Program-made: the position numbers and the translations under genes
The notes under the pieces: generated by a model
Told to the model about the DNA's origin: nothing
The model's input: the letters and a program-made list of their open reading frames with translations, nothing else
The model's database searches: none
Part shown: piece after piece, positions 1 through 49,090 of the stretch
How positions within the stretch are numbered: the stretch's first letter is position 1
How the letters are laid out: every line of letters starts with the position of its first letter
Source of the DNA: Candidatus Parcubacteria bacterium
GTDB taxonomy: Bacteria > Patescibacteriota > Saccharimonadia > UBA4664 > JBIOIQ01
Length of the DNA stretch: 64,000 bases
Direction of reading: 5' to 3'
Assembly (NCBI GenBank): GCA_963718875.1
Contig: OY970378.1
Location: 947,691 to 1,011,690 of the forward strand

Positions 1-189
1 CAGGCACAGCGTCGAAATACTGACAAAGTGTGGCTGCCTTGAGGGAGGTGGCTGGATCGCCGCCTGCAGAGCAGGTATCGTGTCGCATGGCGATCTTGTG
101 AGAGCCTCCAGAGTGACGCTCGAAGGAATCTTCGGTGACCATGCGGCAGGCAAGTTGGCAGAGATCGCTGCTTGATCCTTCCGTCCACC

Positions 190-236
190 ACGACCGTTCC
201 GGGCTATCAACGCCCGGGGCGGTCGTTTTGCTTTTA
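190..236 (+). terminator. GC-rich hairpin (acgaccg...cggtcgt, with inner ccggg/cccgg) followed by a T-run; closes a high-GC (~58%) segment at the left edge of the window
   Basis: Inverted repeat plus tttgctttt read directly from the sequence; the upstream 190 bp is high-GC but has no clean ORF. Confidence 0.35.
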
Positions 237-240
237 AGCC

Positions 241-310
241 TGGTTTTTGAAGTCAGACTTTAATCTTTGGACTTGGGAAATCTCGATTTGAAGTCTGACT
301 TCTGATCTAG
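241..310. repeat. Family-A palindromic element (tttgaagtcagactttaatc ... gatttgaagtctgacttctgatc)
   Basis: Inverted copies of GAAGTCAGACTT/AAGTCTGACTTC; the same unit recurs at 787, 7962, 8604, 15362, 16025 and 41073. Confidence 0.8.
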
Positions 311-630
311 CTGGCGCTGCGGTTTTCAAGCTTGGCAATGCGAAAACCATGGTCTTTGGCATAATCCTTAACCACCACAACGTCGTCTTTGATCTCTGAA
401 AGTTCTTGATGGATCCCGTCTATCAGCATTGTGATCTTCTCAAATTGTTCGTTTACGCCGGTTATAATTGTTTCAACTGCATTATCAATTTTTGAATCAA
501 GCGCATTTAACCTCTGGCCATGCGCAGCGAACCGTGGTTCAACCACCTCGACCACCACAGCTTTAATTTGTTCTAAGTCTTCCTTGGTAAGAGACATTCT
601 TACTCCTTCTTTAGATTTATTGTATCTCAC
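307..630 (-). CDS. Small hypothetical coiled-coil protein; the likely true start is the Met at 597 (MSLTKEDLEQ...), which follows an AAGGAG ribosome-binding site
   Basis: ORF lies between two family-A repeats; the RBS aaggagtaagaATG was read from the sequence; no recognisable domain. Confidence 0.4.
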   Translation of the reverse strand: MRYNKSKEGVRMSLTKEDLEQIKAVVVEVVEPRFAAHGQRLNALDSKIDNAVETIITGVNEQFEKITMLIDGIHQELSEIKDDVVVVKDYAKDHGFRIAKLENRSAS

Positions 631-720
631 CTCTTGTCTCTATCATACCGAACAAAAAGCGAAAGTGCCAGGTTCGGTTAGTCTATCTCGTTCCTCTTCG
701 AACAAGCCTACACATTACCT

Positions 721-778
721 CTGAACTTGTCGAAGGGTCGCAGGGCACGCACATTCCCGGCCTTCGACTACGCTCAGG
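721..778. repeat. Family-C palindromic element (ctgaacttgtcgaagg ... ccttcgactacgctcagg)
   Basis: Inverted repeat; related copies at 5806, 7938, 8576, 33580 (inside alaS), 48866 and 53730. Confidence 0.7.
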
Positions 779-786
779 CCATAATC

Positions 787-857
787 TGGTTTTTTTGAAG
801 TCAGACTTTAATCTTTGATGTTAGGTAACTGTATTTAAAGTCTGGCTTCTAGTCTGG
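787..857. repeat. Family-A palindromic element, directly abutting the family-C copy (composite C+A)
   Basis: tggtttttttgaagtcagactttaatc...aaagtctggcttctagtctgg. Confidence 0.8.
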
Positions 858-1358
858 TTATTTAACGACAAAGTTGACTAGTTTGCGCGGGACGGTAATA
901 GTTTTGACCATTGTTTTACCATCAAGATGCTTTTTGACAGACTCAACCTCCGCAGCGGACTTTTCCAACTCATCCTTGCCCACGTCTACGGCCGCTAGCA
1001 TAGTGCCGCGCAGCTTGCCATTGACCTGGATGGCAATCTCAATGATGTCGTCTTTAATTAACTCTGGATCATATTTGGGCCATGCAGCCACATGTACGCT
1101 CTCGGTTTCGCCCAATGCTTCTTGCCACAGCTCTTCGGCTAAGTGCGGCATGGCTGGAGCTAACATGAGGACTAATGTACGCACAGTTCGTTGCGCCAAT
1201 AAAGCGGCCTCAGGTTGCAAAAGTGATTTACGTATATCCGGCGCGTTCAAGAAGTTTACATATTCCATCAAGCTACTGACCATAGTATTAAAGTGCATAT
1301 CTTGAATATCTTCGTGGACTTTTTTCAAAGTTTTGTGAGTCATACGATCTACTGCCAC
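858..1358 (-). CDS. leuS: Leucyl-tRNA synthetase C-terminal fragment (anticodon-binding and C-terminal domain), separated from the main ORF by a frameshift
   Basis: Ends ...IQVNGKLRG...VPRKLVNFVVK, as bacterial LeuRS C-termini do; starts 2 nt away from the stop of the 840-aa LeuRS ORF but in a different frame. Confidence 0.8.
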   Translation of the reverse strand: MAVDRMTHKTLKKVHEDIQDMHFNTMVSSLMEYVNFLNAPDIRKSLLQPEAALLAQRTVRTLVLMLAPAMPHLAEELWQEALGETESVHVAAWPKYDPELIKDDIIEIAIQVNGKLRGTMLAAVDVGKDELEKSAAEVESVKKHLDGKTMVKTITVPRKLVNFVVK

Positions 1359-1359
1359 C

Positions 1360-3882
1360 TCAATGACCCCCTCGTTCCCACTTGGATTGCGAGGGAGCCT
1401 TGGTTTGGGAGTTTTGAATTAACTTATGCGCCAAGTCCCAAGTACGGTACGTAAAACGCCCTACGCCAGCTAAATGTTCCTCACTCCAGGCCATTTCTTG
1501 ATCATATGGTCCCATAAACATCTCGTACAATCGAAGTATATCTGCTCCATGCGTCGTGATTACGCCGTCTGGATTAATAACATTGCCGCGAGATTTGCTC
1601 ATCTTTTGATTGTCCGGCCCTAAAATCATGCCATGGCTTCGTCTCTTGGCATAAGGCTCGAGAGAGGGCACGAGTTTTTGATCATATAAAAATTTGTGCC
1701 AAAAGCGTGAATACAACAAATGAAGTGTCGTATGCTCCATTCCGCCGTTATAGAGATCAACCATCAACCAGTCTTGTAATTTGGACGTTGAAGCAAAAAC
1801 TTGATCATTGTTGGGGTCAATGTAGCGCAAATAGTACCAGCTAGAGCCAGCCCAGTTGGGCATGGTGTCTGTTTCTCGCTTAGCCGGACCATCACATTGA
1901 GGGCAAACCGTATTAACCCAATCGGTAATTGCCGCCAAGGGGCTTTCACCTGTTTTGGTGGGTTCATAATGTTCAACTTCAGGCAAAGTAAGAGGTAGTT
2001 GATCTTCCGGCACCGGCACGACTCCACACTTGGGACAATGAACCACCGGGATAGGTTCGCCCCAGTAATGCTGGCGACTAAAAATCCAATCGCGCAGTTT
2101 GTACTTGACTGCGTGTTTTGCGGACCCCGCTTTAAACAAATCTTCCACTATGGCTTGCTTTGCTTCGGATCCTAATAAACCGTCGTATTGGCCGGAATTA
2201 ATCAGTTCTCCTTCATCCGTAAGTGCGGTTTCTTTCCATAATTGCTGCCAGACAAATTTTTGGTGGTCAGGTACAAGCCTATCTAAAACTGCTTTTTGTT
2301 CGACCCAAACTAGAGTATGTTGCTTGGATTCGGCGTTGGGAATATTGCCTTGCTGGCTTAGATTGTCAACCTCGGCCATGATCACCATAGTAATGGCCTT
2401 GCGGTTTTGCTGCTTATGCGAGGCGCAGTAACGCGCTCCGGTAACCCAACGTAACTTGCGAACAATATTTATGTCCTGTAAGGCCGCTTCTTCGCGGATC
2501 TCATTTAAGGCGGCAGTTTCAGGTGTTTGCCCGTCTTCAATCCCTCCCATGATGGCAGTAGTTATGCCCTCAAGAGTACCGTGCCAATCAAGCAGGGCAA
2601 ATTTACCAGTGGACTTATCTTTAAGATGGACGATTACCGTGTCCCGAACGACTTCTTCGTACCTGGGTTGAGGTGGATTTTTGGTATCGTCCTCAATAGG
2701 CATGATTACCTGCTTAATTGGTAGGTCAAATTTTTTGGCAAACTCAAAGTCACGCTCATCGTGGGCAGGGACAGCCATAATGGCGCCCGTACCGTAACCC
2801 ATTAAAACGTAGTCGGCGATCCAAACTGGAAGTTCCTCTTTGGTAAGAGGGTTGATCGCCATTGCTCCGGTCCAGACGCCAGTTTTGGGCCGCTCCTGGT
2901 CTTGCCGCATTAACTCTGTCTCGGACTGGACGGTTTTGATATAGCTTTCAGTAACTGATTTTTGACCAGAGGTTGTGATGTCTTTTACTAGTGGATGTTC
3001 AGGCGCCAAGACTAAAAATGTAGCTCCGGCCAATGTGTCGGCACGAGTGGTGAAAACTTCAATATAAGAATTGTCATCCTGAACTCGATTCAGGATCTCT
3101 TGACTTAGTTTAAGAGATTCCGAATCCTGAGCGCTCGCATGGGCATGGTTCGTGCTCGCTTCCGGTCCGGAATGACAGATTGGAAATTTAACCGTCGCCC
3201 CCTCACTTCGACCGATCCAGTTAATTTGTTGCGTGGCCACACGAGGCAAGTAATCGACCGTTTTTAAGTCTTCAATCAGTCTATCAGCATAGGCTGTGAT
3301 TTTGAGTAACCATTGTTTGAGTAATTTTTTTTCGACTTCTGTGCCACAGCGCTCATGACGACCATTAATAACCTCTTCGTTGGCCAACCCAGTCTTACAA
3401 AATGGGCACCAATTAATGGCAATCTCGGCTTGGTAAGCAAGCCCGGCTTTAAGAAGTTGTAAAAAAATCCACTGGGTCCACTTGTAGTACTTAGGGTCAG
3501 TGGTATTAACCTCGCGCGACCAGTCGAAGCTTAGGCCCAAGCTTTTCATTTGGCGACGGAACGTGTCGACATTACGTTCGGTAGCGAGATGAGGGGCAAT
3601 CTTGTTTTTGATTGCATAGTTTTCTGTGGGCAATCCAAAAGCATCCCAGCCCATAGGATAGAGCACATTGAAACCTTGCATACGCTTGTGTCTGGCCATA
3701 ATATCCAGGGCAGTAAAGCTGCGGACATGTCCTACATGCAGCCCATCTCCCGAGGGATAAGGAAATTCTGCCAACAGGTAATATTTGGGCTTAGGATCAA
3801 AATCGACCGCTTGATAAAGCTTAGTGTCCGTCCAAACTTTTTGCCATTTGGGCTCAATTTTGCCTGGTTCGTATGGTTTCAT
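1360..3882 (-). CDS. leuS: Leucyl-tRNA synthetase main body (HVGH ... KMSKS) with an embedded Nudix/MutT-like domain and a repeat-derived insertion
   Basis: HVGHVRS and KMSKSRGN class-I motifs; CP1/editing region (TTRADTLAGATF, AVPAHDERDFEFAKKF); Nudix box GGIEDGQTPETAALNEIREEAAL at about aa 446-468. Confidence 0.9.
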   Translation of the reverse strand: MKPYEPGKIEPKWQKVWTDTKLYQAVDFDPKPKYYLLAEFPYPSGDGLHVGHVRSFTALDIMARHKRMQGFNVLYPMGWDAFGLPTENYAIKNKIAPHLATERNVDTFRRQMKSLGLSFDWSREVNTTDPKYYKWTQWIFLQLLKAGLAYQAEIAINWCPFCKTGLANEEVINGRHERCGTEVEKKLLKQWLLKITAYADRLIEDLKTVDYLPRVATQQINWIGRSEGATVKFPICHSGPEASTNHAHASAQDSESLKLSQEILNRVQDDNSYIEVFTTRADTLAGATFLVLAPEHPLVKDITTSGQKSVTESYIKTVQSETELMRQDQERPKTGVWTGAMAINPLTKEELPVWIADYVLMGYGTGAIMAVPAHDERDFEFAKKFDLPIKQVIMPIEDDTKNPPQPRYEEVVRDTVIVHLKDKSTGKFALLDWHGTLEGITTAIMGGIEDGQTPETAALNEIREEAALQDINIVRKLRWVTGARYCASHKQQNRKAITMVIMAEVDNLSQQGNIPNAESKQHTLVWVEQKAVLDRLVPDHQKFVWQQLWKETALTDEGELINSGQYDGLLGSEAKQAIVEDLFKAGSAKHAVKYKLRDWIFSRQHYWGEPIPVVHCPKCGVVPVPEDQLPLTLPEVEHYEPTKTGESPLAAITDWVNTVCPQCDGPAKRETDTMPNWAGSSWYYLRYIDPNNDQVFASTSKLQDWLMVDLYNGGMEHTTLHLLYSRFWHKFLYDQKLVPSLEPYAKRRSHGMILGPDNQKMSKSRGNVINPDGVITTHGADILRLYEMFMGPYDQEMAWSEEHLAGVGRFTYRTWDLAHKLIQNSQTKAPSQSKWERGGH
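3066..3176. repeat. Family-B/D-like palindromic element inserted in-frame inside leuS
   Basis: ttgtcatcctgaa..ttcaggatc followed by agattccgaatcctgagcgctcgc...cgcttccggtccggaatgac; compare the intergenic B copies ggattccctatccggagcgc...ccgatagggaatgac. It encodes the low-complexity LeuRS segment CHSGPEASTNHAHASAQDSESLKLSQEILNRVQDDNS. Confidence 0.6.
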
Positions 3883-3930
3883 GAGGGTAATTGTACCCTA
3901 GGTAGGCAAAAAGTTCGAGGGCGAGTCCGC

Positions 3931-3969
3931 GATGTCTGACTTCTCTACCCGAGAAGGAAGTCAGACATC
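3931..3969. repeat. Isolated family-A hairpin (gatgtctgacttc / ggaagtcagacatc) between leuS and the high-GC islet
   Basis: 13-bp perfect inverted repeat containing the family-A core gaagtcagac, followed by ttttt. Confidence 0.6.
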
Positions 3970-4107
3970 GAGAACTTTTTTACCGGCAAACAGGAAGTAG
4001 GCAGGTTTGCTTATCCGTGACGGAACTCATGACGCTGAGACACGGTGTACTTTTGAGCTTATTTGTAGTATGGTAATGGTTCGAACCTTCGACAGATTGG
4101 ACGAATC

Positions 4108-4440
4108 ATGACACGTCAAGCAGTAAGGAACAACGACGGGCTTGACCAGATGCTTCACCACGTGGACTGGAGCGCAGCTCACGTCAGCAGGGAAATGCTG
4201 TGCAAGCTGATCGCCGTGGCCCTCGAGAGAGACTCCACTGACTCGGTTATGACCGCAAGCGTAATGCTGGCAATTGTCGCGCCGGTGGAAGGCTGTACAC
4301 CTGCAGATTGGCACGACAACCTCGGTTGGCTGCGCAAGACCCTGGCGATCGAGACGCCAGCACCAACCGGCCGGCACCGGGCGGGCGCGAGTGACGGGAC
4401 CAACCACGATGGCCGCAACGGTTCCTCTTGCGGGCACTAG
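4108..4440 (+). CDS. Hypothetical protein, first gene of a four-gene high-GC plus-strand islet
   Basis: About 60% GC versus about 45% background; the 4428 and 4630 starts have RBSs (aggag, gaggtga); minus-strand ORFs over the same span look like GC artefacts. Confidence 0.35.
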   Translation: MTRQAVRNNDGLDQMLHHVDWSAAHVSREMLCKLIAVALERDSTDSVMTASVMLAIVAPVEGCTPADWHDNLGWLRKTLAIETPAPTGRHRAGASDGTNHDGRNGSSCGH

Positions 4441-4613
4441 CACCAGGAGCTCTGATGGACTCCACTAGAGTTATCATCCCTGCTTGGTTTCCTGCGCCAG
4501 TTGGAGATGTTGACGAGCGGCCAGTTAGACCATCCCAGTGGGCCCCAGAGGTGATGGCTGAAGTGTTAGCCGAGGAGGCCGGAAGCCTCGTTACAACCAT
4601 TCCTCTGCCATGA
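4428..4613 (+). CDS. Hypothetical small protein (likely start MDSTRV at about 4455 after an aggag RBS)
   Basis: High-GC islet; RBS read from the sequence. Confidence 0.3.
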   Translation: MRALAPGALMDSTRVIIPAWFPAPVGDVDERPVRPSQWAPEVMAEVLAEEAGSLVTTIPLP

Positions 4614-4629
4614 CCTACAGAGGTGAGTA

Positions 4630-4878
4630 ATGCCCGCCATTGACACGCATCTGGACTTCCTGCCATTTTCCGTTGATTGGGAGCATACGGAGAGCCGTGC
4701 CAGAGTCGCTTTGGTGGTTCAAGCAGCTCTCATCTGCCCCCCGAGCGCCGTAAAAGCCCACTGCCAAACCTTGGCCGTAATGGCTCCTCTAATGGGCGAA
4801 CAGGGAACGGAAGGTTGGGAAGCCAACCTGGAGTGGCTGAAGCTGACCGATGAAGCTGTGAGCTCAAGTGCCTCTTGA
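4630..4878 (+). CDS. Hypothetical small protein
   Basis: gaggtgagtaATG ribosome-binding site; high-GC islet. Confidence 0.35.
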   Translation: MPAIDTHLDFLPFSVDWEHTESRARVALVVQAALICPPSAVKAHCQTLAVMAPLMGEQGTEGWEANLEWLKLTDEAVSSSAS

Positions 4879-4920
4879 CGGCAGCTCCGCCAACAATCCA
4901 CACCACACTGTGGCTCCTTT

Positions 4921-4982
4921 GAAAGCCACAAGCCCCACCAAGACGGCTCCACCAGCTGTTTTGGTGGGGCTTGTCTTTTATA
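4921..4982 (+). terminator. Rho-independent terminator (ccccaccaa...ttggtgggg hairpin plus T-run)
   Basis: caagccccaccaagacggctccaccagctgttttggtggggcttgtctttta. Confidence 0.6.
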
Positions 4983-5037
4983 AAAGTTGATCGTATAATA
5001 TTCCGCACCCGTACCGCCATAGAACAGGGAGCTCCAA

Positions 5038-5568
5038 ATGACCAGCACTATGACAGACGCCGCACGTGCCCAGCGACGGGCAGTTGCCGCCTCCACATTC
5101 CTTCATCCAGCACCTGGTGCTACGCGCCAAAAACTGACCTTCGCCGAGTGGAATGAAATGCTCGGCAGCACGGACGAGCCAGTCGGCACAGTCGATCCTA
5201 CTACCAAGATCGACTTTGGCGAGTGGGTGGGCGCAGCTACCGGCTGGATGGGATTCTTGGCCAACGACGTCTTGACGCATCTCATCCGACTGGGCATGAC
5301 GTCCACCGAATGGTTCGACGAGGCAGCAAGGATTTTCGTTGCCCAGAACATCAAGTCCGCGCAACTGGAGAAAAAGTCGGTTCAAGACTGGTGGGAGTAC
5401 TTGCGTCTGGCGGCAGACAAGTACAAGTCCAGCTTCGCGAACGGCGTTGGCGAAGAGCCCATCCCCCTCCACACCTTCCTCAACCGGATCCTGTCCACCG
5501 ACCTGAACGTTCAGGCGTGGTATACGCGGTTACGGGGTCTGGCCCCGGCATCTAGCACTGTAACGTAG
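5038..5568 (+). CDS. Hypothetical protein (176 aa), high-GC
   Basis: gggagctccaaATG ribosome-binding site; bracketed by two plus-strand terminators. Confidence 0.5.
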   Translation: MTSTMTDAARAQRRAVAASTFLHPAPGATRQKLTFAEWNEMLGSTDEPVGTVDPTTKIDFGEWVGAATGWMGFLANDVLTHLIRLGMTSTEWFDEAARIFVAQNIKSAQLEKKSVQDWWEYLRLAADKYKSSFANGVGEEPIPLHTFLNRILSTDLNVQAWYTRLRGLAPASSTVT

Positions 5569-5677
5569 TCGCCTACCGACCATATTCGCCGTTCTCCGGC
5601 GAACCCCTATTCAGCCAGGCAGACCCTTCCATTCAACCGTCCTGCGACCTCTCGACCGCAGCCCCATCAGAACAACC

Positions 5678-5715
5678 CCCACCGGTTGTTTTGGTGGGGT
5701 TTGTTCGTTTAATGG
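5678..5715 (+). terminator. Rho-independent terminator (aaccccaccgg...ttggtggggtt plus T-run) closing the high-GC islet
   Basis: Hairpin followed by tttgttcgttt; a second small hairpin gtcccgctggagcgggac plus tttctcttc lies at 5780-5805. Confidence 0.55.
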
Positions 5716-5805
5716 AGCCCAAAGAATCAGCTGACGTAGCAAGACGACCTGGATTAAGAGATCCTGAACAGTATAAACGTCCCGCTGGAGCGGGACTTTC
5801 TCTTC

Positions 5806-5843
5806 CCTTCGACTTTGCTCAGGACCTCTGGCAGGATGACAAT
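5806..5843. repeat. Family-C half-site (cccttcgactttgctcagg) plus the caggatgacaat D-type terminal motif
   Basis: Matches the C copies at 761-778 and 8576-8596, and the D motif at 48993 and 58345. Confidence 0.5.
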
Positions 5844-5870
5844 TTAAAAGCTAGTTGAAATAAATGGTAG

Positions 5871-7007
5871 CTAGAATTGCCCGATAATATTGGACTTAAA
5901 GTTAAAGTTAATCTTCTTTTGCTCATTAAAGCGTTCTTCGGCTAGTCTAATTAGCTCGTCTACCAACTCTACTCCCGACACGCCAGCCGCCCGCCAATTG
6001 TGGTCATACAGCGCGCCAGGCAAAGTATTAATTTCGTTTAAATAAACTTTTCCCGTCTTACCATCAATTAGTAAATCCACCCGGGAAATGCCGGCCGCAC
6101 CGATAGCACGATAGGCCGCAATGGCCATTTGTTCTGATGCCTTAATAAGCTTAGGGTCAATTTTGGCTGGTAGCTCGCTATAATTGCCCTTTTTACCCCC
6201 GCCTTTTTTACCTTGGCCAATATATTTGTCTTCAAAATTAAACAGCTCAGATTTGTTAAGGGCTCGTTCGACCAAGGCAACTCGCGGCTCGGCATTACCC
6301 ATAACCGGCACCGTAACTTCGATTAAGTTGGGTACGCCCTCTTCAACAATCACTTTGTCGTCATAATGCAGCGCCACTTCGATAGCGTTTACAAGTTGGT
6401 CAGGTTTTTGAACTTTGGTAATGGCAATGCTGGAACCCAAATGAACTGGCTTTACAAATAATGGATATTTAAGGCTTTTGAGCTTTTTTTCAACCGCTGA
6501 TTGATTGGCTTGCCAATCATGTCGCATAAACCATTCATAGCGCGGGCTGGGCAGTCCAACCGCACCGGTAACTTGTTTGGTAATGACTTTGTCCATAGCT
6601 ACAGCTGAAGCAAATAAATCGCAACCTACAAACGGCACGCCGGCCATGCGTAAAAGACCCATAAGACTGCCATCTTCGCCGTAAGTGCCATGCATGGCGG
6701 TAAAGGCGACGTCAATTTTTTGCTGGCGGGTCCTTATGGATGGCCAGGTTAAGATAAGTCCGTTATCAAACAGCAGTTGGACCTTTTTCATTTTTTTTAG
6801 CTGACTGGTAAAATCAGGATTTTGGAAAGTTTTAATATCTAACAGTGATGGGTCGCAGTACCACGAACCGTCTTGAGTAATGTAAAGTGGATGCACGGTG
6901 TATTTGCCCGAAGCCTTGAGGCTGGGGATTACCGAAACAAGAGCCGTTACAATTGATACATCGTGCTCAGCTGAACGGCCGCCAAATATTACTAAAACGT
7001 TTTTCAT
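5871..7007 (-). CDS. ddl: D-alanine--D-alanine ligase
   Basis: 378 aa; ATP-grasp Ddl signature region (HGTYGEDGSLMGLLRMAGVPFVG...). Confidence 0.9.
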   Translation of the reverse strand: MKNVLVIFGGRSAEHDVSIVTALVSVIPSLKASGKYTVHPLYITQDGSWYCDPSLLDIKTFQNPDFTSQLKKMKKVQLLFDNGLILTWPSIRTRQQKIDVAFTAMHGTYGEDGSLMGLLRMAGVPFVGCDLFASAVAMDKVITKQVTGAVGLPSPRYEWFMRHDWQANQSAVEKKLKSLKYPLFVKPVHLGSSIAITKVQKPDQLVNAIEVALHYDDKVIVEEGVPNLIEVTVPVMGNAEPRVALVERALNKSELFNFEDKYIGQGKKGGGKKGNYSELPAKIDPKLIKASEQMAIAAYRAIGAAGISRVDLLIDGKTGKVYLNEINTLPGALYDHNWRAAGVSGVELVDELIRLAEERFNEQKKINFNFKSNIIGQF

Positions 7008-7144
7008 AAGCTTAATTATAGCATCCTCGAGCTCGAGACCGATTTGCCATTGGCGAACTGGTATTTTTTGACTTATTTGGCTTAATTAGGCATAATCACT
7101 TCACTACTCGCTTCGAAGCTTGAAGCCCTATCGGAAAGGCTACT

Positions 7145-7597
7145 ATGAGCCGCTTTACGAGACTCCTGAACCTCTACATCATCGTTGTTGGAGCGCTGGC
7201 CGGCCTGTGGCTTCTCTCCGTTATATCCATTGGACTGGGGAGAGGATCTGTCTTCAATACTCGATACGTGATGCTCTGCATTGCAAGCGTAGGTGTACTG
7301 GCCGTCATGGTTCTTGTAACAATCCTGTTGCTGGTAGATGACTGGGATAGCTCACTAATGCTCGCCCGAGTAGTCCCGGCTCACATTGTTGGTGGATCTG
7401 TGGCCTTGGGCTTTGCCTTTCATGTCACGCCAACAACTGGAATGGCGGCGCCTGCCTTAAACTGGCTGGTGGCAGTAATGTTCTACCTCTTGGCCGCGGC
7501 CGCTTGCATATCGATCACCTTGCAGCTCTATCTTGCTTCGCCCGTAAGTAACAAACGCCCACCAAAGGACTCCGGCAAGATCTTGAAGGCGCTGTAG
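7145..7597 (+). CDS. Hypothetical multi-pass membrane protein; GC about 55%
   Basis: Four predicted hydrophobic helices; the stop overlaps the start of the next ORF. Confidence 0.45.
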   Translation: MSRFTRLLNLYIIVVGALAGLWLLSVISIGLGRGSVFNTRYVMLCIASVGVLAVMVLVTILLLVDDWDSSLMLARVVPAHIVGGSVALGFAFHVTPTTGMAAPALNWLVAVMFYLLAAAACISITLQLYLASPVSNKRPPKDSGKILKAL

Positions 7598-7851
7598 TGG
7601 AGATCAACTTCCAGGAACTATTGGGCATGCTCGGCCGGTTCGTGCTTGACGGGTTCAAACGGAAGCGTCTGGCAGCGACGCTGTTCCTTTACTTACTCGG
7701 CGATGCCATCATGATGGGGATGATCGGCGTCATGATAGTAATCGGGCATCCGACGGGTGTAGCTGTGGCACTTGTTGCGACAGTGATGGCGATTTGGTTG
7801 ACACTCCCAACCTTCCGAGCTTGGGAGAGAAACCAGGCAGACATGCGTTAG
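7597..7851 (+). CDS. Hypothetical small membrane protein (two TM helices)
   Basis: Overlapping stop/start with the upstream gene (ATGA coupling); followed by a terminator. Confidence 0.4.
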   Translation: MEINFQELLGMLGRFVLDGFKRKRLAATLFLYLLGDAIMMGMIGVMIVIGHPTGVAVALVATVMAIWLTLPTFRAWERNQADMR

Positions 7852-7862
7852 AACAACAACCA

Positions 7863-7917
7863 CCGGTCCGGCGGCCACGCGCAAGCGCAGCTGCCGGACC
7901 GTTCGGCTTTTATAATC
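7863..7917 (+). terminator. Rho-independent terminator (ggtccggc..gccggacc plus ttcggcttttat)
   Basis: Inverted repeat plus T-run read from the sequence. Confidence 0.5.
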
Positions 7918-7937
7918 TGATTCTACGCTGGGCAAGG

Positions 7938-8033
7938 CCTTCGACCGACTCAGGCAATGATTGGTTTTTTGAAGTCCAACTTTAATCTTCATGGCTTTTG
8001 GCAATCGGGATTTGAAGTCAGACTTCTGATCAG
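7938..8033. repeat. Composite family-C half-site plus family-A element
   Basis: ccttcgaccgactcaggc followed by tggttttttgaagtccaactttaatc...gatttgaagtcagacttctgatcag. Confidence 0.8.
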
Positions 8034-8040
8034 TGTGAAA

Positions 8041-8560
8041 AGGCAAACGGCACCCCCGAGGAGGGGGTGCCGTGAGTGGCCCGCCAAGAAAGCGGCAGGC
8101 CAGTTTGTTTAGGGTGGTCAGCGGATCTGGTAATGGGGCGATTACCGTACTGCGATCCGCCTATCGTAGGGTTTCACACGCCGGATGAGGAACGCCCTCG
8201 TTAAGGCCCCAACTATCGCCACATATGCCCAGAAACCATGGGCCAGCTTTCCAAAAACGTCAAGGCGTTATACTTACTGCACCTGCTGACAATTTCGTCA
8301 GCTCCGCCCGGGCCCTGGTATGCGTATGCCTACGCATACCAGGGTAGATCCCGTTTGGGCCAATCGGCCGTCTGGTCGAGCTTCCGTTCGAGGGTGTGTG
8401 CCGGAGGGACCTGCCCAGGGGCACATTCATGACCCACCAAGAGCCGAGGCGCTTGATACCCTAGGATCCCATTGGACTTGACGGAAGAGCATCGCTTTTC
8501 GCCCGATCGGGGTATGAAAAACGTAGCAAAACTTGACAGAAGTGTCAAGAGAATTTTTGA
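8041..8560 (+). ncRNA. Candidate structured non-coding region (about 520 bp, elevated GC, several perfect hairpins, ends in a terminator); its identity could not be assigned
   Basis: Hairpins ggcaccccc-gagga-gggggtgcc (8049-8071) and ccctggtatgcgta-tgcc-tacgcataccaggg (about 8305-8340); cttgaca-gaag-tgtcaag plus tttttga (8531-8560); the only ORFs are 64-72 aa and unconvincing. Confidence 0.2.
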
Positions 8561-8575
8561 TAAATATTTTTAGTT

Positions 8576-8705
8576 CAGCCTTCGACTATGCTCAGGCAAT
8601 AATTGATTTTTGAAGTCCGACTTTAATCTTAATAGCTTAGCAGTCTCGATTTGAAGTCGGACTTCTGATCTAGGTTTCATTTGAAGTCGGACTTCTGGTC
8701 TGGGT
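8576..8705. repeat. Composite family-C half-site plus an extended family-A element with an extra tandem A arm, abutting the murF stop codon
   Basis: cagccttcgactatgctcagg ... tgatttttgaagtccgactttaatc ... gatttgaagtcggacttctgatctaggtttcatttgaagtcggacttctggtctggg. Confidence 0.8.
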
Positions 8706-10274
8706 TCAGGCGAAGCTATCCGGCCAGTCATTCTGCAGCAACACCACGTCCCCCGCTTTGGTCAGTTTGGGCAACGCCAATAAAGCGCTTATTTCATCGG
8801 CGTAGGTCAACAACTGACCCTTAAAGTCGCCTTCTTTCAAACCAGTTTTGATATATTCCATGACAGACGTTTCAATCAATACCACCACCTCGATACCGGC
8901 CTCTGCGAGCAGGCGCCCAATTGTTTCATGTACTATCTTGGCACGATGGGCAGTTTCGGTGATTCCGGGGGTAACATAAAAGCGTTTGTGTCCCTTTAAG
9001 CTAGCTAAGAAGTTGATTGCTACCCTAGCCCCGTCAGGGTTGCCATTATAGGCATCGTCTATTGTAACCACACCGCTGCCGTCAGTGGATGGCTCCATGC
9101 GGTGTTCAAACGGTTTAGTAGCCGCCAGTCCTTTTTCGATATCGTCCTGCGATAATCCTAAATCTTTCGCTAGTATGGCTACGGCAGCCAATGGCCCAAC
9201 TTGGTGCACTCCTAATAATTGCGACTTAATATGAAGAGTCTCTTTGCCATGCTTCATTTCAAAGTTAGTTCCCTCAAGACCGGTTGAAACTTTGCCTACG
9301 CTCCAGTCGCCAACGCCTTTTGAGCTATAAACTGTGGCTTTGTATTGCTTAGCCCGCTCGGCAGCCAATGAGCTATCGCCGTTAACGTACAGGCTCACAT
9401 TTGTCATCTGACCTTTGACCCCAGATCGAGCCCGGGGCAGGCTATCTGACGCCACGGGCGAAAAACTAGGCTTTGATATCTCAGATTCGGTGCCATCTGG
9501 ATTCAAGGCCTGGTTGGTCTGATTCTGCAGCCAGTCACCCAGCTCATAAATGGTTGAGACTGTGGCGTCAAGTGAACGAAATTTGCTTAGGTGGGCTTCA
9601 TTTATACCGGTAATAACTCCAATATCAGGTTGAACCAAACGGCTGAGCTTAGTAATGTCACCTGGAAAATATTCACCCAGTTCAAAAATTAGGATCTCTT
9701 CGTCGCTTTTTAGGTTTTCGACAAAACGGCTAATCCCTGCCGGCGTGTTTAAATTTCCGGGGGTGGCAGCCACGGCTTTGGCAGTACTCAGTACCGTGAC
9801 TAGCATTTCTTTCATGGTGGTTTTGCCAAAGCTACCTGCAATGGCAATTTTGAAAGCCGGATGATCGGCTAACCGCTTGCTGGTGCGGGCGTCGCGGACC
9901 CTTTCCTGAGGTGTCAAAATGGCAATGCGAGCAATTATGGCCGCCAAGGCTAAACTATATGCCAATAAATAGGGCGCTAAAAGACAAATGATAATTACAG
10001 ACAGCGACCACCAAATTATTAACTTTTGGCTAATGGCAAAATACAGAAGCACCACAATGATGAGCCAAGCCAAGGCAATTTCGAGCCAAACAAACAGCAA
10101 AAAACCTTTGGCGGCGGCCGTCATATCCAGTTTTCGGACGCGGGCTACTTGCTTGAAGTTGCGAGTGCGATGAAACCAACTCAGGTAATCTTGGGGACGG
10201 TACTCACTTTGTTGCAACATGTAAACCAGTGACCTGACAAACTTTAGACTATAGCGGCTAAAAAAATTACGCAT
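8706..10274 (-). CDS. murF: Mur ligase (UDP-MurNAc-tripeptide--D-Ala-D-Ala ligase, MurF-like) with an unusual N-terminal transmembrane extension of about 110 aa
   Basis: AIAGSFGKTTMKEM ATP-binding motif and central/C-terminal Mur ligase domains; the N-terminus has two or three hydrophobic helices (LLFVWLEIALAWLIIVVLLYF..., IIWWSLSVIIICLLAPYLLAYSLALAAII). Confidence 0.8.
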   Translation of the reverse strand: MRNFFSRYSLKFVRSLVYMLQQSEYRPQDYLSWFHRTRNFKQVARVRKLDMTAAAKGFLLFVWLEIALAWLIIVVLLYFAISQKLIIWWSLSVIIICLLAPYLLAYSLALAAIIARIAILTPQERVRDARTSKRLADHPAFKIAIAGSFGKTTMKEMLVTVLSTAKAVAATPGNLNTPAGISRFVENLKSDEEILIFELGEYFPGDITKLSRLVQPDIGVITGINEAHLSKFRSLDATVSTIYELGDWLQNQTNQALNPDGTESEISKPSFSPVASDSLPRARSGVKGQMTNVSLYVNGDSSLAAERAKQYKATVYSSKGVGDWSVGKVSTGLEGTNFEMKHGKETLHIKSQLLGVHQVGPLAAVAILAKDLGLSQDDIEKGLAATKPFEHRMEPSTDGSGVVTIDDAYNGNPDGARVAINFLASLKGHKRFYVTPGITETAHRAKIVHETIGRLLAEAGIEVVVLIETSVMEYIKTGLKEGDFKGQLLTYADEISALLALPKLTKAGDVVLLQNDWPDSFA

Positions 10275-14225: not shown

Positions 14226-14508
14226 CTGGTGAAGCTTAAGGAGATTGTGGCTTCGCCACCTCTCGGAGCCTGCCCCGGACTTGATCCGGGGGTGCTCGAC
14301 ATGAACAAACGATGTTTGTTCATGCTCTCCAGCTCCTCGTTCACCTGAACTCCAAGGGAGTTCTCACTCCCGCATCTCCTGGTGGAGCTTAAGGAGATTG
14401 TGGCTTCGCCACCTCCCTGTGGTGCTCGACATGAACAAACGATGTTTGTTCATGCTCTCCAGCTCCTCGTTCACCTGAACTCCAAGGGAGTTCTCACTCC
14501 CGCATCTC
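14226..14508. repeat. Tandem direct repeat (about 153 bp then 130 bp). Each unit starts with a tRNA-Ala 3'-end-like sequence (ctggtgaagct / ctggtggagct) and contains the hairpin catgaacaaac-gat-gtttgttcatg. It runs directly into tRNA-Ala(CGC)
   Basis: Units 14226-14378 and 14379-14508 are near-identical apart from one roughly 23-bp indel; the ORF-track ORFs 14364..14570 and 14382..14615 are artefacts that span the tRNA. Confidence 0.8.
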
Positions 14509-14509
14509 C

Positions 14510-14585
14510 TGGTGGAGCTGGGGAGATTCGAACTCCCTACCTCTGCAATGCGAATGCAGCGCTCTACCAAGTGAGCTACAGCCCC
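14510..14585 (-). tRNA. tRNA-Ala (anticodon CGC), CCA encoded
   Basis: Reverse complement is GGGGCTGTAGCTCACTTGGTAGAGCGCTGCATTCGCATTGCAGAGGTAGGGAGTTCGAATCTCCCCAGCTCCACCA; G3:U70 pair. Confidence 0.9.
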
Positions 14586-14833: not shown

Positions 14834-16392
14834 TCCATTTCATTAGTACCGATTCTTATAATATCACCTGGCTCGACTCCATGCTTAATAAGCTCTTTGC
14901 CAACGCCTGTTTTGCGCAAAATGTCGCGCATACGCTCCACAGCATCTTGGTTGTCCCAGTCAGTACGACGGCCATGGCCTTCAATGTTGCCGCCCATCAC
15001 CCGCCAAGAGCCATCCGGTTCTTGTTCTAATTTCCATAAATTTGGAAAATCCATTTGGTCAATAACGGCTTTAGGCTCGGCCTCGGCGGCGGCTTTTCGC
15101 GCCTCTCGTGCCACCATCACTAACTGCGCCGTTCGACGTAACAAAACATCGAGACCCCGGTGAGCTACTGCTGATATGGCGAAAATACTAGTCTTGTCAT
15201 CCTCGACAGAAAGGTCACTCTCATCCACATGATTATTGGCCTTGTCGACCGCTTCTGATCGGGGATCCAGTTGACTAGGTTCCCTATCCGGAGCGAGGTT
15301 GTCTAATTTATGGTTAGTCTCGTCTTCCGATAGGGAATGACGTTTGAGGATGGTTTGTTCGTCTGGATTTGAAATCTGACTTCTGGAGATTACCGATGCT
15401 AGTTTTTCCATTTGACTTTTTAATTCCTCAGCCGTAACTGTTTCGATCTTGGTTAGCACTACCAGTTGCGGACGCTGTGTAAGGTCAACACTGTACGAAG
15501 TTAGCTCGTTTATTATAGTCAGGTAGTCGCGTTCAATGTCGTTTGAGTCAACGCTAATAAGGTGTAGTATTACCGCCGTGCGCTCGATGTGCCGTAAAAA
15601 TTCATCACCTAAGCCTTTGCCTTCGCTGGCTCCTTCAATTAGGCCCGGAATATCGGCTACTAAAAAAGTGTTTTGCTCAAAGTCGACGACACCCAGGTTT
15701 GGCACCAAGGTGGTGAACGGGTAGTCGGCTATTTCTGGCTTGGCGTTACTAATGACGGACAGGAGTGTGGACTTTCCCGCGTTTGGCAATCCTACCAGTC
15801 CAACGTCTGCCACTAGTTTAAGCTCCAAGGCAACGCGAAGTTTTTCGCCCGGCTCGCCTTTTTCCGCTAAATGCGGGGTTTGGCGGACGGAAGATATAAA
15901 GTGTGCATTACCAAACCCGCCGCGGCCACCTTTGGCCACAACCACTTGTTGGCCATCGTCGGTAAGATCGGCCAATACCTTAGCATCGTGAGTCGTGATC
16001 GGAGAGTTGTGAGTTGTCCTTCTATCTGGATTAGAAGTCAGACTTACATCTTTGATGCTTGTAGGACCTGGATTAGAAGTCTGACTTCTAGCCTGGGGCA
16101 TTTCATAAATAACTGTACCTACCGGCACTCTAATAATCATGTCCTGACCACTTTTACCTGCCTTGCGGTTGCCACCACCTGGAGCGCCGTCTTCAGCCTC
16201 TACTTTGCGGTTAGTGCGGTATTTGCTTAAAGTATTTTGGTTGTGGCTTGATTCAAATATAATGCTGCCACCACGGCCGCCATCGCCGCCATCGGCTCCG
16301 CCTTTGGCGCGGTATTTTTCGTGACGAAAGCCCATCTTGCCATCGCCGCCTTTGCCCGCCCGTAATTCGATTTCAGCTTTATCAGTAAACAT
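14824..16392 (-). CDS. obg: GTPase Obg/CgtA, expanded to 522 aa by three in-frame repeat-element insertions
   Basis: Obg fold N-terminus (GGDGGRGGSIIFE), G1 motif GLPNAGKSTLL, C-terminal OCT/TGS-like domain; the extra segments map exactly onto the repeat copies at 15251-15387 and 16025-16096. Confidence 0.9.
   Translation of the reverse strand: MFTDKAEIELRAGKGGDGKMGFRHEKYRAKGGADGGDGGRGGSIIFESSHNQNTLSKYRTNRKVEAEDGAPGGGNRKAGKSGQDMIIRVPVGTVIYEMPQARSQTSNPGPTSIKDVSLTSNPDRRTTHNSPITTHDAKVLADLTDDGQQVVVAKGGRGGFGNAHFISSVRQTPHLAEKGEPGEKLRVALELKLVADVGLVGLPNAGKSTLLSVISNAKPEIADYPFTTLVPNLGVVDFEQNTFLVADIPGLIEGASEGKGLGDEFLRHIERTAVILHLISVDSNDIERDYLTIINELTSYSVDLTQRPQLVVLTKIETVTAEELKSQMEKLASVISRSQISNPDEQTILKRHSLSEDETNHKLDNLAPDREPSQLDPRSEAVDKANNHVDESDLSVEDDKTSIFAISAVAHRGLDVLLRRTAQLVMVAREARKAAAEAEPKAVIDQMDFPNLWKLEQEPDGSWRVMGGNIEGHGRRTDWDNQDAVERMRDILRKTGVGKELIKHGVEPGDIIRIGTNEMEWL
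15251..15342. repeat. Family-B element inside obg (gcttctgatcggggatccag ... ggttccctatccggagcg ... ccgatagggaatgacg)
   Basis: Matches the intergenic B copies at 26516, 32388, 34994, 36237 and 51378. Confidence 0.75.
15362..15387. repeat. Family-A half element inside obg (tctggatttgaaatctgacttctgga)
   Basis: A-family core. Confidence 0.6.
16025..16096. repeat. Full family-A element inside obg (tctggattagaagtcagacttacatc...ctggattagaagtctgacttctagcctgg)
   Basis: Encodes the extra Obg segment QARSQTSNPGPTSIKDVSLTSNPDRRTT between GTVIYE and the KGGRGGFGN region. Confidence 0.8.
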
Positions 16393-26590: not shown

Positions 26591-26939
26591 AACTGAAGCT
26601 CGAAGACCGATCTCCCAAGTGGGCAAAATTCGTGCTTGGAGTTTGGGCATTAGAGCTTGTTTGATCATTGCTTGTTGCTTTGTTATTGCTTAGTATTGTA
26701 CCTCTTATGCTACGTCAAGTAAAATTGACATTTTACACTTAAAATGATCAAAATAAGGTACATCTGGCCGCTCGGGCTGGACTCACATAAGGAGGCCGAG
26801 ATGGCCATTGATCAAGCGCTTCAACTCGGCGACGTCATGACGTCGCTTTGGGGTATGCGCCACCTGGCGTTTTATTTAGCTGAGGACATCGGGCCCGACA
26901 GTCGACCGGTACTGGATGGTCAAATCTTCCTGTAAGAGT

Positions 26940-27400
26940 GTGGCCCTTTTGGGGGTATCCCGACTCGGAGCGATATCACAGACGGGCCCGAACTCAGAAG
27001 ACCACATTTCGCCTCCCCGAGCAGCCTTCAGATCTCGGTAGTTCCTTGGAGTGTACGGGATCGAGCAGTTTGCGGTGAGGCAATCGAGGTGCACTACCTC
27101 GGTTTCGATTCGAGTGGTGAACGATTGCCCGGAACAACCATCACGGTTGGACCGGTGCTCGCCTAGCGGTCAAGATCGCCGGGCGGTGCCTTGCATGGAG
27201 TCGCCTCCCATGTATGCGACATCGCCGCGGTACCCCGGCCGGCGGAGAGCGGTGCCCACCTCTCTCCGCCGGCCGGCTCTCTTTCAATTACCGCACGCTT
27301 GAGCACCCGCCATGTGCGGTTTTTTTGTAGTTCTACGGATTGACTCAGACAGGCAAAATAGGTAAACTAAGCAGTACTTGTCAAATCGACAGGAGTTCCA
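26940..27400 (+). other. High-GC structured leader upstream of the ECF sigma gene, including a perfect 15-bp inverted repeat at about 27232-27272
   Basis: ccggccggcggagag-cggtgcccac-ctctctccgccggccgg; followed by ccgcacgc..gtgcgg plus T7 at about 27285-27330. Confidence 0.3.
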
Positions 27401-27421
27401 CCCGAGCCCCAAAGGAGGGCA

Positions 27422-28234: not shown

Positions 28235-28369
28235 GGAAGCAATTAGCTTCACCCCTCCGGTGGCCCGTTTGACACGTTTGTGTTGAGCGGGTCCTATTCT
28301 TTTATGGGCTTTTATGATATAAATTTTGTGACTTTTACGCATACCGACAGCTTGGCGAAAGGATGAGCC

Positions 28370-48865: not shown

Positions 48866-49090
48866 CCCTGAGCTTGTCGAAGGGTCGGACCGGCTTTGCC
48901 TCTCTTAGTATGATAACGATGAAAACTTAGGGTTTAAGAGGTGCTGAACAGTAGGAGCGGCCATGCTCCGCGGCGCATCTGGTGACTCAATACTGGCCTT
49001 CCTCTTCAGTATGACGATTAGAATATTTGGTTCAACAAAAGTTGGTGGATCCTGAAATAAATTCAGGATGACAAACAAGGGGGGAGGCGA
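48866..49090. repeat. Repeat cluster: family-C half-site (48866-48888), family-D element (48993-49019), atcctgaa..ttcaggatgacaaacaagggggg element (49049-49090)
   Basis: ccctgagcttgtcgaagggtcgg; ctggccttcctcttcagtatgacgat (compare 58345-58372); compare 3068-3098 and 36286-36300. Confidence 0.65.

What the first reader, a model, noticed from the sequence alone, without database searches (positions are those of the whole stretch)
4030..5720. A 1.7-kb high-GC plus-strand islet of four unknown genes with its own terminators, inserted between leuS and ddl
GC is about 60% against about 45% in the flanks. Four consecutive plus-strand ORFs with ribosome-binding sites (4108, 4428/4455, 4630, 5038) end in two strong GC-hairpin terminators (4921-4982, 5678-5715), then a family-C repeat. 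Antisense ORFs of similar length exist only because of the GC richness. No domain was recognised in any of the products. The composition and architecture suggest horizontal acquisition, for example from a high-GC actinobacterial host or phage if this organism is a Saccharibacteria-type epibiont.
Basis: partly seen in the sequence, partly recalled or inferred. Interest (0 to 1): 0.6.

Follow-up and report, generated by a model that had tools for sequence, protein, structure and literature searches.

The report
High-GC orphan-gene islet beside leuS
A 1.7-kb GC-rich patch between two housekeeping genes of a Saccharibacteria genome is a real set of small self-contained genes of unknown function, found only in a few close relatives and apparently swapped between them, so it is an ordinary kind of accessory "islet" and shows no sign of coming from an actinobacterial host.

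Summary
Window 4030-5720 is 57.5% GC (peaks 62%) against 45-47% flanks, the second strongest compositional outlier in the window. It lies antisense between ddl and leuS of a Saccharimonadales genome. Genes A (4108-4440) and C (4630-4878) are paralogues. D (5038-5568) is a real gene (dN/dS 0.16-0.32) with a conserved promoter, ribosome-binding site and terminator. ORF B is doubtful. The two terminators are strong and belong to one hairpin family.

No domain, fold, phage, plasmid or defence match was found. An exhaustive search of 1.84 billion representatives found only four D-family proteins. In the two relatives whose DNA could be read, D lies directly upstream of leuS (LeuS about 70% identical). 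The islet is therefore clade-specific, not new to this genome.

D alleles are 47-62% identical regardless of host relatedness. In two hosts whose flanks are 90.6% identical, similarity collapses about 40 nt into D, which points to allele replacement. The ddl-leuS junction is a variable slot across the order (24 bp to 4.7 kb).

The islet's composition matches high-GC Saccharimonadales relatives, so no actinobacterial or phage donor is needed, and none was found. Verdict: a new member of a known kind. Function is unresolved. Interest is modest.

The parts
3924..3976 (.). REP-like palindromic hairpin upstream of leuS. It is a variant of the genome's GAAGTCnGACTTC repeat family and lies in native sequence at the left edge of the islet.
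   Evidence: Inverted repeat of 20 nt, 90% complementary. Folds at -29 kcal/mol, z -3.9. The repeat family is dispersed through the window.
4108..4440 (+). Gene A, the first paralogue of the A/C family of small helical proteins. The conserved domain covers about aa 1-84; the C-terminal tail is not conserved.
   Evidence: BLASTP against C gives E 1e-4. The motif W-x-x-N-L-x-W-L is shared with C and with a gene fragment in L059. GC3 is 0.72, in phase. The 99.4%-identical strain L058 has two 1-nt deletions at 4359 and 4388 that end the protein at 94 aa.
4455..4613 (+). ORF B (52 aa from the ATG; 61 aa from the TTG at 4428). Doubtful as a gene; possibly the decayed remnant of a gene in A's frame.
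   Evidence: It has a good AGGAG site. Against it: GC periodicity is out of phase with the ORF, no family match in Pfam, PADLOC or NCBIfam (no homologue search was run on B), and its stop codon is lost in L058.
4630..4878 (+). Gene C, the second paralogue of the A/C family (82 aa). The model is a three-helix bundle of low confidence.
   Evidence: The only database match is itself. AF2 pLDDT is 66.
4920..4980 (+). Intrinsic terminator T1 after gene C. Its T-tract overlaps the -35 box of the D promoter.
   Evidence: 21-bp stem, -41.9 kcal/mol, z -8.6. It belongs to the same hairpin family as T2.
4971..4999 (+). Sigma-70-type promoter of D (TTGTCT, 17 nt, TATAAT).
   Evidence: 10 of 12 consensus matches. 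The -10 box and its surroundings are conserved upstream of the D homologues in L059 and L060.
5026..5568 (+). Gene D with its Shine-Dalgarno site (AGGGAG at 5026-5031; ORF 5038-5568, 176 aa). It belongs to a four-member orphan family that lies next to leuS wherever the DNA could be read.
   Evidence: Homologues are P0002, P0005 and P0006 only. The alignment is gap-free. dN/dS is 0.16-0.32. Homologues lie directly upstream of leuS in L059 and L060. GC3 is 0.71.
5653..5707 (+). Intrinsic terminator T2 after gene D.
   Evidence: -32.5 kcal/mol, z -5.2. It is conserved after the D homologue of L059, with a compensatory A-U to G-C change.
5779..5842 (.). Native right edge: a short GC hairpin (5779-5796, plausibly the ddl terminator on the minus strand) plus a copy of the dispersed CAGGATGACAA repeat.

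Best explanation
The segment is a genuine accessory-gene islet in the chromosome of a Saccharimonadales bacterium. It sits, in antisense orientation, in a slot of the conserved murF-ddl-leuS cluster that varies across the order.

It is built from self-contained ('moron-like') transcription units. Gene D has its own sigma-70-type promoter, ribosome-binding site and strong intrinsic terminator. Between leuS and the D promoter lies a block of about 0.95 kb with two paralogous small genes (A and C) that ends in a second copy of the same terminator family. ORF B is probably not a gene.

The D and A/C families are orphan families known only from a narrow Saccharimonadales clade. In the two relatives with readable DNA, D lies next to leuS.

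The islet keeps its foreign composition because the cassette is repeatedly replaced by divergent alleles drawn from related, higher-GC Saccharimonadales lineages. The likely route is natural transformation and homologous recombination anchored in the conserved promoter, 5' end and terminator sequences.

Shown: the anatomy, coding status, synteny, allele discordance and absence of outside homologues. Inferred: the donor pool, the recombination route and the function.

The products are small, soluble, Trp-rich helical proteins. My best guess, marked as inference, is that they are strain-variable conflict or immunity-type accessory proteins and not metabolic enzymes.
For: Composition and ORFs.

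A and C are paralogues.

D is coding and under purifying selection: gap-free alignment of four proteins and dN/dS 0.16-0.32.

The promoter, ribosome-binding site and terminator are conserved in L059 and L060, with a compensatory change in the terminator stem.

Synteny: murF-ddl-leuS is conserved, with a ddl-leuS gap of 24 bp to 4.7 kb that holds unrelated, co-directional genes such as guaA (identified by eye from the translation) in relatives.

D homologues lie directly upstream of leuS in L059 and L060, and an A/C homologue lies downstream of D in L059.

Discordance: L059 and L060 are 90.6% identical across the leuS 5' end, the intergenic region and the first 39 nt or so of D, then 42-64% identical inside D. 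Pairwise identity within the family is 47-62% and does not follow host relatedness. The two alleles differ in GC (59% against 51%) in near-identical hosts.

No outside homologues.

Composition matches high-GC Saccharimonadales (L003, L013, L037, L038; ddl GC3 0.70-0.73).

Saccharibacteria are naturally competent (PMC10633639). Most detected transfers into Patescibacteria come from other Patescibacteria (PMC12455944).
Against: Only four D-family proteins and three readable relative loci exist, so the allele-replacement inference rests mainly on one close pair (L059 and L060), and the L060 copy is truncated.

No donor genome carrying D or A/C was found, including the high-GC relatives L003 and L038 within 10 kb either side of ddl.

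No recombination junction was shown on the 3' side.

No promoter was detected for A.

Function is entirely unassigned. The AF2 models are poor (pLDDT 57 and 66) and the fold searches gave nothing better than E of about 1.6.

Persistently high GC could also come from a local process such as biased gene conversion, not from donor composition.
Confidence: 0.55

Rival explanations
1. One reading: a recent horizontal acquisition from a high-GC actinobacterial host, or from a phage, into this particular genome.
For: There is a strong GC and GC3 contrast. The units are autonomous, with a promoter and terminator like phage morons. The organism is a Saccharibacteria, whose cultivated members live on Actinobacteria (PMC10633639). 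Other segments of the window, such as class I FBA with GC3 0.87, look even more actinobacterial.
Against: No homologue of D was found in 1.84 billion representative proteins outside four proteins; the contigs with readable DNA are Saccharimonadales. A and C also have none in a word-seeded search. Nothing was found in IMG/VR, INPHARED phages, PLSDB plasmids or PHROGs. There is no integrase, att site or tRNA nearby. D already lies next to leuS in relatives whose LeuS is only about 70% identical, so the association is old. GC3 of 0.6-0.72 is below typical actinobacterial values (my own knowledge) and equals that of high-GC Saccharimonadales.
Confidence: 0.12
2. The genes are native, vertically inherited and clade-specific. 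Their high GC is produced locally, for example by GC-biased gene conversion at a recombination hotspot or by selection on mRNA or protein composition, and not by import.
For: D is at the same locus in three lineages. High GC recurs in the window and in L059. Many small GC-rich accessory segments occur in this genome and in the sister strain L058, which could reflect a general rule that accessory or recombining genes are GC-richer than the core.
Against: L059 and L060 have nearly identical flanks but D alleles with 47% amino-acid identity and different GC (59% against 51%). This fits import of different alleles better than a locus-specific bias. The abrupt identity drop about 40 nt into D is not expected from vertical descent.
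Confidence: 0.18
3. The segment is decaying junk: remnants of a once longer inserted element, with ORFs that are no longer functional or are chance ORFs in GC-rich DNA.
For: B has the wrong codon periodicity and loses its stop codon in the sister strain. A's tail carries two frameshifting indels between 99.4%-identical strains. The D copy in L060 is truncated at about aa 105. The islet differs from L058 at about 1% of positions against about 0.2% in leuS (small numbers).
Against: D has dN/dS of 0.16-0.32 over saturated synonymous divergence, a gap-free four-way alignment, and conserved promoter, SD and terminator. The A/C domain is conserved across paralogues and in L059.
Confidence: 0.1
4. 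Assembly chimera: GC-rich DNA from another organism was wrongly joined into the contig.
For: The window assembly carries at least one indel that splits leuS. The sister-strain contig L058 breaks inside the islet at window position 4626.
Against: The left junction (leuS to A to B) is reproduced at 99.4% identity in an ENA assembly. The gene spacing of a Logan contig corresponds to window 4651-6073, the right junction (C-D-ddl); its DNA was not read, and the run may be the one used for this assembly. D homologues adjoin leuS in three further assemblies.
Confidence: 0.02

Closest known systems
Genomic islands and islets (horizontally acquired accessory segments), as catalogued in Patescibacteria (PMC12455944)
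   Same: Compositional deviation in GC and oligonucleotides. Sporadic distribution among relatives. Insertion in an otherwise syntenic core cluster. Hypothetical gene content. Exchange mostly within the phylum.
   Different: Only 1.7 kb long. No integrase or other mobility gene, no tRNA target, and no clear flanking direct repeats. The gene families are tied to one chromosomal locus, next to leuS.
Phage 'morons': autonomous promoter-gene-terminator units of deviant composition inserted between phage genes (concept of Hendrix and colleagues; from my own knowledge)
   Same: D has its own promoter and factor-independent terminator, and its base composition differs from its neighbours. C ends in the same kind of terminator.
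   Different: The flanking genes are cellular housekeeping genes (ddl, leuS), not prophage genes. There are no phage homologues.
Integron gene-cassette arrays
   Same: Short single-gene units in one orientation, each followed by a member of one family of imperfect palindromes. The order of units differs between relatives (A-C-D in the window, D then an A/C-like gene in L059).
   Different: No IntI integrase or attI was seen in the islet. The palindromes are classic terminators with T-tails. D carries its own promoter, whereas integron cassettes are typically promoterless.
Arrays of small immunity genes of polymorphic toxin systems (from my own knowledge of that literature)
   Same: Tandem paralogous small soluble helical proteins with conserved Trp residues, extreme allele divergence between close strains, and a narrow distribution.
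   Different: There is no adjacent toxin gene and no match to any immunity or toxin Pfam family. This is a functional analogy only.
Pfam DUF6117 (PF19612)
   Same: Gene A and its L058 allele give a weak local match (E 0.04-0.06, 13.7 bits).
   Different: The score is far below the 27-bit cut-off. C and the L059 homologue do not match. I treat it as chance.

Membership tests
Classical genomic island | Base composition deviating from the genome | tested here: met
   GC 57.5% against 47-49%. z = 2.7 for GC and 2.5 for tetranucleotides. GC3 0.6-0.72 against 0.45-0.50.
Classical genomic island | Mobility gene (integrase, transposase or recombinase) inside or at the edge | tested here: not met
   No Pfam hit for any ORF on either strand. 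The nearest transposase-like fragment is at 57.2 kb.
Classical genomic island | Insertion next to a tRNA or tmRNA gene, with flanking direct repeats | tested here: not met
   The nearest tRNAs are at 12.3 and 14.5 kb. Only a weak 12-14 nt imperfect repeat flanks the A-B-C block.
Classical genomic island | Sporadic presence among related genomes | tested here: met
   Absent from 57 ddl loci fetched from GTDB genomes (mostly Saccharimonadales). Present in L058, L059 and L060/L061 only.
Phage moron | Own promoter and own intrinsic terminator around a single gene | tested here: met
   D has a promoter at 4971-4999 (10 of 12) and terminator T2. Both are conserved in L059. These are sequence predictions only; there are no transcript data.
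Phage moron | Located within a phage or prophage genome | tested here: not met
   The flanks are leuS and ddl. There are no PHROG, IMG/VR or INPHARED matches.
Integron cassette array | IntI tyrosine recombinase and attI next to the array | tested here: not met
   No recombinase domain in the islet or its flanks.
Integron cassette array | attC recombination sites at cassette 3' ends | tested here: inconclusive
   One family of imperfect palindromes ends C and D. They have T-tails typical of terminators, and no attC model was available to test them.
Toxin-antitoxin or toxin-immunity module | Recognisable toxin or immunity domain, or a paired toxin gene | tested here: not met
   No Pfam, PADLOC or NCBIfam match.
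Pfam DUF6117 | Score at or above the family's gathering cut-off (27 bits) | tested here: not met
   13.7 bits, E 0.06, and only for A and its L058 allele.
Structured RNA locus (an alternative cause of local high GC) | Match to an Rfam family | tested here: not met
   No hit at E of 1 or below in 3880-8710. Only two tRNAs in the window at gathering score.

The most novel reading that the evidence does not exclude
The leuS-proximal cassette is a dedicated hypervariable locus. A conserved promoter, the first codons of D and the terminator would serve as homology anchors. Through them, naturally competent Saccharimonadales swap highly divergent alleles of D (and shuffle A/C-type units). The products would be immunity or anti-effector proteins used in conflicts with hosts, phages or rival epibionts. 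This would be a previously undescribed, lineage-specific allele-swapping system made of two new protein families.
Probability: 0.15. Interest if true: 0.6.

Novelty: new member of a known kind. Interest (0 to 1): 0.3.

Why it matters
If the reading is right, the segment is one concrete, well-delimited example of how reduced epibiotic genomes keep a small flexible gene pool. Self-contained gene units sit in fixed slots of otherwise frozen core clusters and are exchanged among relatives of different base composition. It also warns against reading every GC-rich patch in a Saccharibacteria genome as host-derived DNA. It defines two orphan protein families (D; A/C) that could be tested in the genetically tractable Saccharibacteria models. 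Beyond that, it is an ordinary accessory islet of unknown function.

Tried and rejected
Domain and family searches of A, B, C, D and the four antisense ORFs gave nothing. Pfam, PHROGs, PADLOC, NCBIfam and PDB sequence profiles produced only sub-threshold noise such as DUF6117, Glyoxalase_7 and T6SS_Tse3_N.

The AlphaFold2 models of D (pLDDT 57) and C (pLDDT 66, three helices) were too weak. Foldseek against the PDB gave no hit better than E of about 1.6. The afdb50 library was unavailable.

A profile-profile comparison of the D family with the A/C family showed no relationship.

Nothing was found with DNA or protein searches of phage and plasmid records, IMG/VR scans or two metagenome-contig scans.

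DNA for the JGI contig carrying P0002 could not be fetched, so its neighbours (98 and 82 aa) remain unseen.

Exact-protein look-ups of Ddl and of the 7145-7597 ORF, meant to find the sister strain's right-hand junction, returned nothing.

Rfam gave no RNA family in or near the islet, so a structured-RNA explanation for the high GC was dropped.

An integron-like reading was considered and rejected because there is no integrase and D has its own promoter.

A misassembly reading was rejected because the left junction recurs in another assembly and the gene spacing of a Logan contig matches the right one.
Full report
1. THE OBSERVATION

The stretch 4030-5720 is 57.5% GC. 300-nt windows reach 0.62, while leuS (1360-3882, minus strand) and ddl (5871-7007, minus strand) are 0.45-0.47. 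Among 312 sliding 1.7-kb windows the islet ranks just behind the region around a class I aldolase gene at 60.8-61.8 kb. Its z-score is 2.7 for GC and 2.5 for tetranucleotide deviation. It is an outlier but not unique: about ten more segments of at least 54% GC occur in the 64 kb.

The four plus-strand ORFs exist. In A (4108-4440), C (4630-4878) and D (5038-5568), GC rises at the third codon position (0.72, 0.60, 0.71, against 0.45-0.50 in core genes) and is in phase with the ORFs. The antisense ORFs show no such phase.

ORF B (4455-4613) has a good AGGAG site. However, its GC periodicity follows A's frame and not its own.

Both terminators are real. Hairpin 4920-4980 folds at -41.9 kcal/mol (z -8.6) and hairpin 5653-5707 at -32.5 kcal/mol (z -5.2). 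Each has a T-rich tail, and they share a 26-nt arm at 88% identity. This hairpin family occurs nowhere else in the window.

To the right lie a short hairpin (5779-5796) and a copy of a dispersed CAGGATGACAA repeat, which has 7 copies against 0.83 expected. To the left lies a REP-like palindrome (3924-3976) of a family spread through the window.

No RNA family matches the region.

2. WHOSE GENOME, AND IS THE JUNCTION NORMALLY CONTIGUOUS?

A scan of GTDB species representatives with the Ddl protein returned 57 loci, mostly labelled Saccharibacteria or Saccharimonadales. The best identity was only 55-56%, so the source species is not in that set.

In these loci murF-ddl-leuS is a conserved, co-directional cluster. 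The ddl-leuS gap ranges from 24-75 bp (L001, L002, L004, L007, L008, L016, L031) to 4.7 kb. Where the gap is filled, it holds co-directional ordinary-looking genes. By eye these resemble guaA and an aminotransferase. The gap GC never exceeds the flanks by more than 0.06.

The junction is therefore a variable slot across the order. The window is unusual in filling it with antisense, GC-rich orphan genes. The murF-ddl gap of the window (7008-8705) holds a second GC-rich plus-strand insertion.

3. ARE THE ORFs GENES, AND WHO ELSE HAS THEM?

A and C are paralogues (BLASTP E 1e-4). They share a motif, AP-x(6-8)-W-x-x-N-L-x-W-L.

D has one homologue in the word-seeded search of 5.8 billion protein clusters (P0002, 55% identical). 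It has two more in an exhaustive HMMER search of 1.84 billion representatives (P0005 and P0006). Those four proteins are the whole family.

The four D proteins align without a gap over the shared length. Nei-Gojobori dN/dS is 0.16-0.32 at near-saturated dS. D is therefore a real protein-coding gene under purifying selection.

C matched only itself. A matched only its allele in a sister strain.

No member of either family occurs in the 57 relatives' ddl loci, as shown by an HMM search of six-frame translations. None occurs in IMG/VR, phage records, plasmid records or the metagenome contig collection.

No Pfam, PHROG, PADLOC, NCBIfam or PDB-sequence match reaches significance. AF2 models are poor: D has pLDDT 57, and C has pLDDT 66 and forms a three-helix bundle. 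Foldseek finds nothing better than E of about 1.6. D and A/C are unrelated to each other.

4. CONTEXT IN RELATIVES: THE KEY RESULT

Contig L058 is a sister strain, 99.4% identical over window 183-4626. It carries leuS, A and B and then ends. A 1423-bp Logan contig holds D with neighbouring genes spaced exactly as in window 4651-6073, that is C-D-ddl. Its DNA could not be read. Together these make a chimeric junction unlikely.

In L059 and in L060/L061 the D homologue lies immediately upstream of leuS and is divergent from it. In those contigs LeuS is 69-71% identical to the window's. L059 also has an A/C-family gene just downstream of D.

The D promoter, the Shine-Dalgarno context (AGGAGCTCCAAATGACC) and the terminator are conserved between the window and L059. 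In L060 the promoter and Shine-Dalgarno context are conserved, but its truncated D lacks the terminator. The stem carries a compensatory A-U to G-C change.

The sequence that is single-copy in L059 and L060 (...AAGTAGGCGGTGGGTTTGCTTTTTGTAATATTACTTGTATAATAT) appears split in the window. Its left part lies at about 4000-4020 and its right part at about 4963-4999, on either side of A-B-C-T1. This suggests that the roughly 0.95-kb A-B-C block is an insertion between leuS and an older D unit. The alignment is short and imperfect, so this step is inferred.

5. DISCORDANCE

L059 and L060 are 90.6% identical over 394 nt. That stretch covers the leuS 5' end, the intergenic region and the first 39 nt or so of D. 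Identity then drops to 42-64% inside D.

Pairwise amino-acid identity within the family is 47-62% and does not follow host relatedness. L059 and L060 are close hosts with 47% identity in D. The window and L059 are distant hosts with 52-56%. The two alleles in near-identical hosts also differ in GC, 59% against 51%.

This pattern is expected from allele replacement by recombination, not from vertical descent.

Between the window and L058, the islet shows about 1% differences. These include two frameshifting indels in A's tail and loss of B's stop codon. leuS shows about 0.2%. The numbers are small. They fit weak constraint on A's tail and on B.

6. WHERE COULD THE GC COME FROM?

The relatives closest by LeuS or MurF identity (L003, L013, L038) are themselves 55-59% GC, with ddl GC3 of 0.70-0.73. 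These values match the islet. The islet's trinucleotide composition is closer to those loci (distance 0.034-0.038) than to the window's core (0.056). That comparison mostly reflects GC and cannot single out a donor.

Saccharibacteria are naturally competent (PMC10633639). A survey of Patescibacteria found islands and transferred genes making up as much as 13% of genome length, mostly exchanged within the phylum (PMC12455944). An intra-order gene pool is therefore sufficient. No actinobacterial or viral source was found despite very large searches.

7. EXPLANATION AND RIVALS

Best explanation (confidence about 0.55): a clade-restricted accessory islet made of moron-like units in a variable slot, renewed by allele replacement from related higher-GC lineages. 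Its products are small soluble helical proteins, possibly conflict-related; that function is inferred.

Rivals:
- Native genes with locally driven GC, such as biased gene conversion (0.18). This is weakened by the different GC of alleles in near-identical hosts.
- A host or phage donor (0.12). This is weakened by the total lack of homologues and by the old association with leuS.
- Decaying junk (0.10). This may be true for B and A's tail, but not for D.
- Assembly chimera (0.02).

8. COMPARISON WITH KNOWN KINDS, AND VERDICT

The segment works like a mini genomic island and like phage morons, but it fails the membership tests for both. It has no mobility gene, no tRNA target and no prophage context. 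It also fails the tests for integron cassettes (no IntI, and D has its own promoter). It is a new member of a known kind, an accessory islet in a hotspot, and it carries two orphan protein families.

Its interpretation is partly supported: foreign and exchangeable, yes; actinobacterial or phage donor and recent arrival, no. Interest is 0.3. The most novel reading still open is a dedicated allele-swapping immunity-type locus next to leuS, with a probability of about 0.15.

Noticed in passing
window 858-3882 (minus strand), indel near 1378-1382: leuS is split into two ORFs (840 aa and 166 aa) by a 1-nt difference in a short C-run. The 99.4%-identical strain L058 has a single intact 1007-aa gene. 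This is likely an assembly indel, or a very recent frameshift in an essential gene.
   Followed up: partly
window 1360-3882 (minus strand), LeuS aa 442-544: LeuS carries a NUDIX hydrolase domain (28.5 bits, cut-off 21.1) inserted after the editing domain. The same family is recorded for the L058 LeuS. This is an unusual fusion for a leucyl-tRNA synthetase and deserves its own look.
   Followed up: partly
window 7008-8705: The murF-ddl junction is 10-100 bp in most relatives. Here it holds a second GC-rich (53-57%) plus-strand insertion. It has two membrane-like orphan ORFs (7145-7597 and 7597-7851), then about 700 nt with few ORFs and REP-like repeats. There are no Pfam, PADLOC, NCBIfam or Rfam matches.
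   Followed up: partly
window 244-313, 792-860, 7966-8037, 8607-8706, 15362-15382, 16025-16099, 41086-41128; variant at 3924-3976: A dispersed family of REP-like palindromic intergenic repeats built on GAAGTCnGACTTC. They often sit at the edges of variable segments. The alignment with strain L058 breaks down at one of them.
   Followed up: no
window 3071-3097, 5832-5842, 49064-49074, 58359-58369 and three 1-mismatch copies: A short repeat family containing CAGGATGACAA has 7 copies against 0.83 expected. One palindromic copy lies in frame inside leuS and codes for part of a lineage-specific insertion.
   Followed up: partly
window 60801-61829 (minus strand): The class I fructose-bisphosphate aldolase gene has 66% GC and GC3 0.87. 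It is the strongest compositional outlier of the window and a better candidate for transfer from a very GC-rich donor than the islet studied here.
   Followed up: no
L058 4202-6075: The sister strain carries three tandem paralogous GC-rich orphan genes (131, 146 and 176 aa) with a shared NRW...WGDL motif, beyond the end of leuS. They do not align with the window's first 182 bases. This is another strain-variable orphan array.
   Followed up: partly
window 26876-28825: Another GC-rich (56-63%) plus-strand segment contains an ECF-type sigma-70 factor (27422-28234) flanked by small orphan ORFs.
   Followed up: no
window 57250-58229: An ORF with transposase-type HTH_38 and HTH_23 domains (57250-57942) is followed by a short ORF (57978-58229) that looks, by eye, like a transposase catalytic remnant. 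Together they suggest a broken IS30-like insertion sequence.
   Followed up: no
window 14226-14519: A 104-nt direct repeat at 98% identity (14286-14389 and 14416-14519), plus shorter repeats, overlaps the 3' end of tRNA-Ala(cgc). It looks like a duplicated tRNA-end or att-like structure.
   Followed up: no
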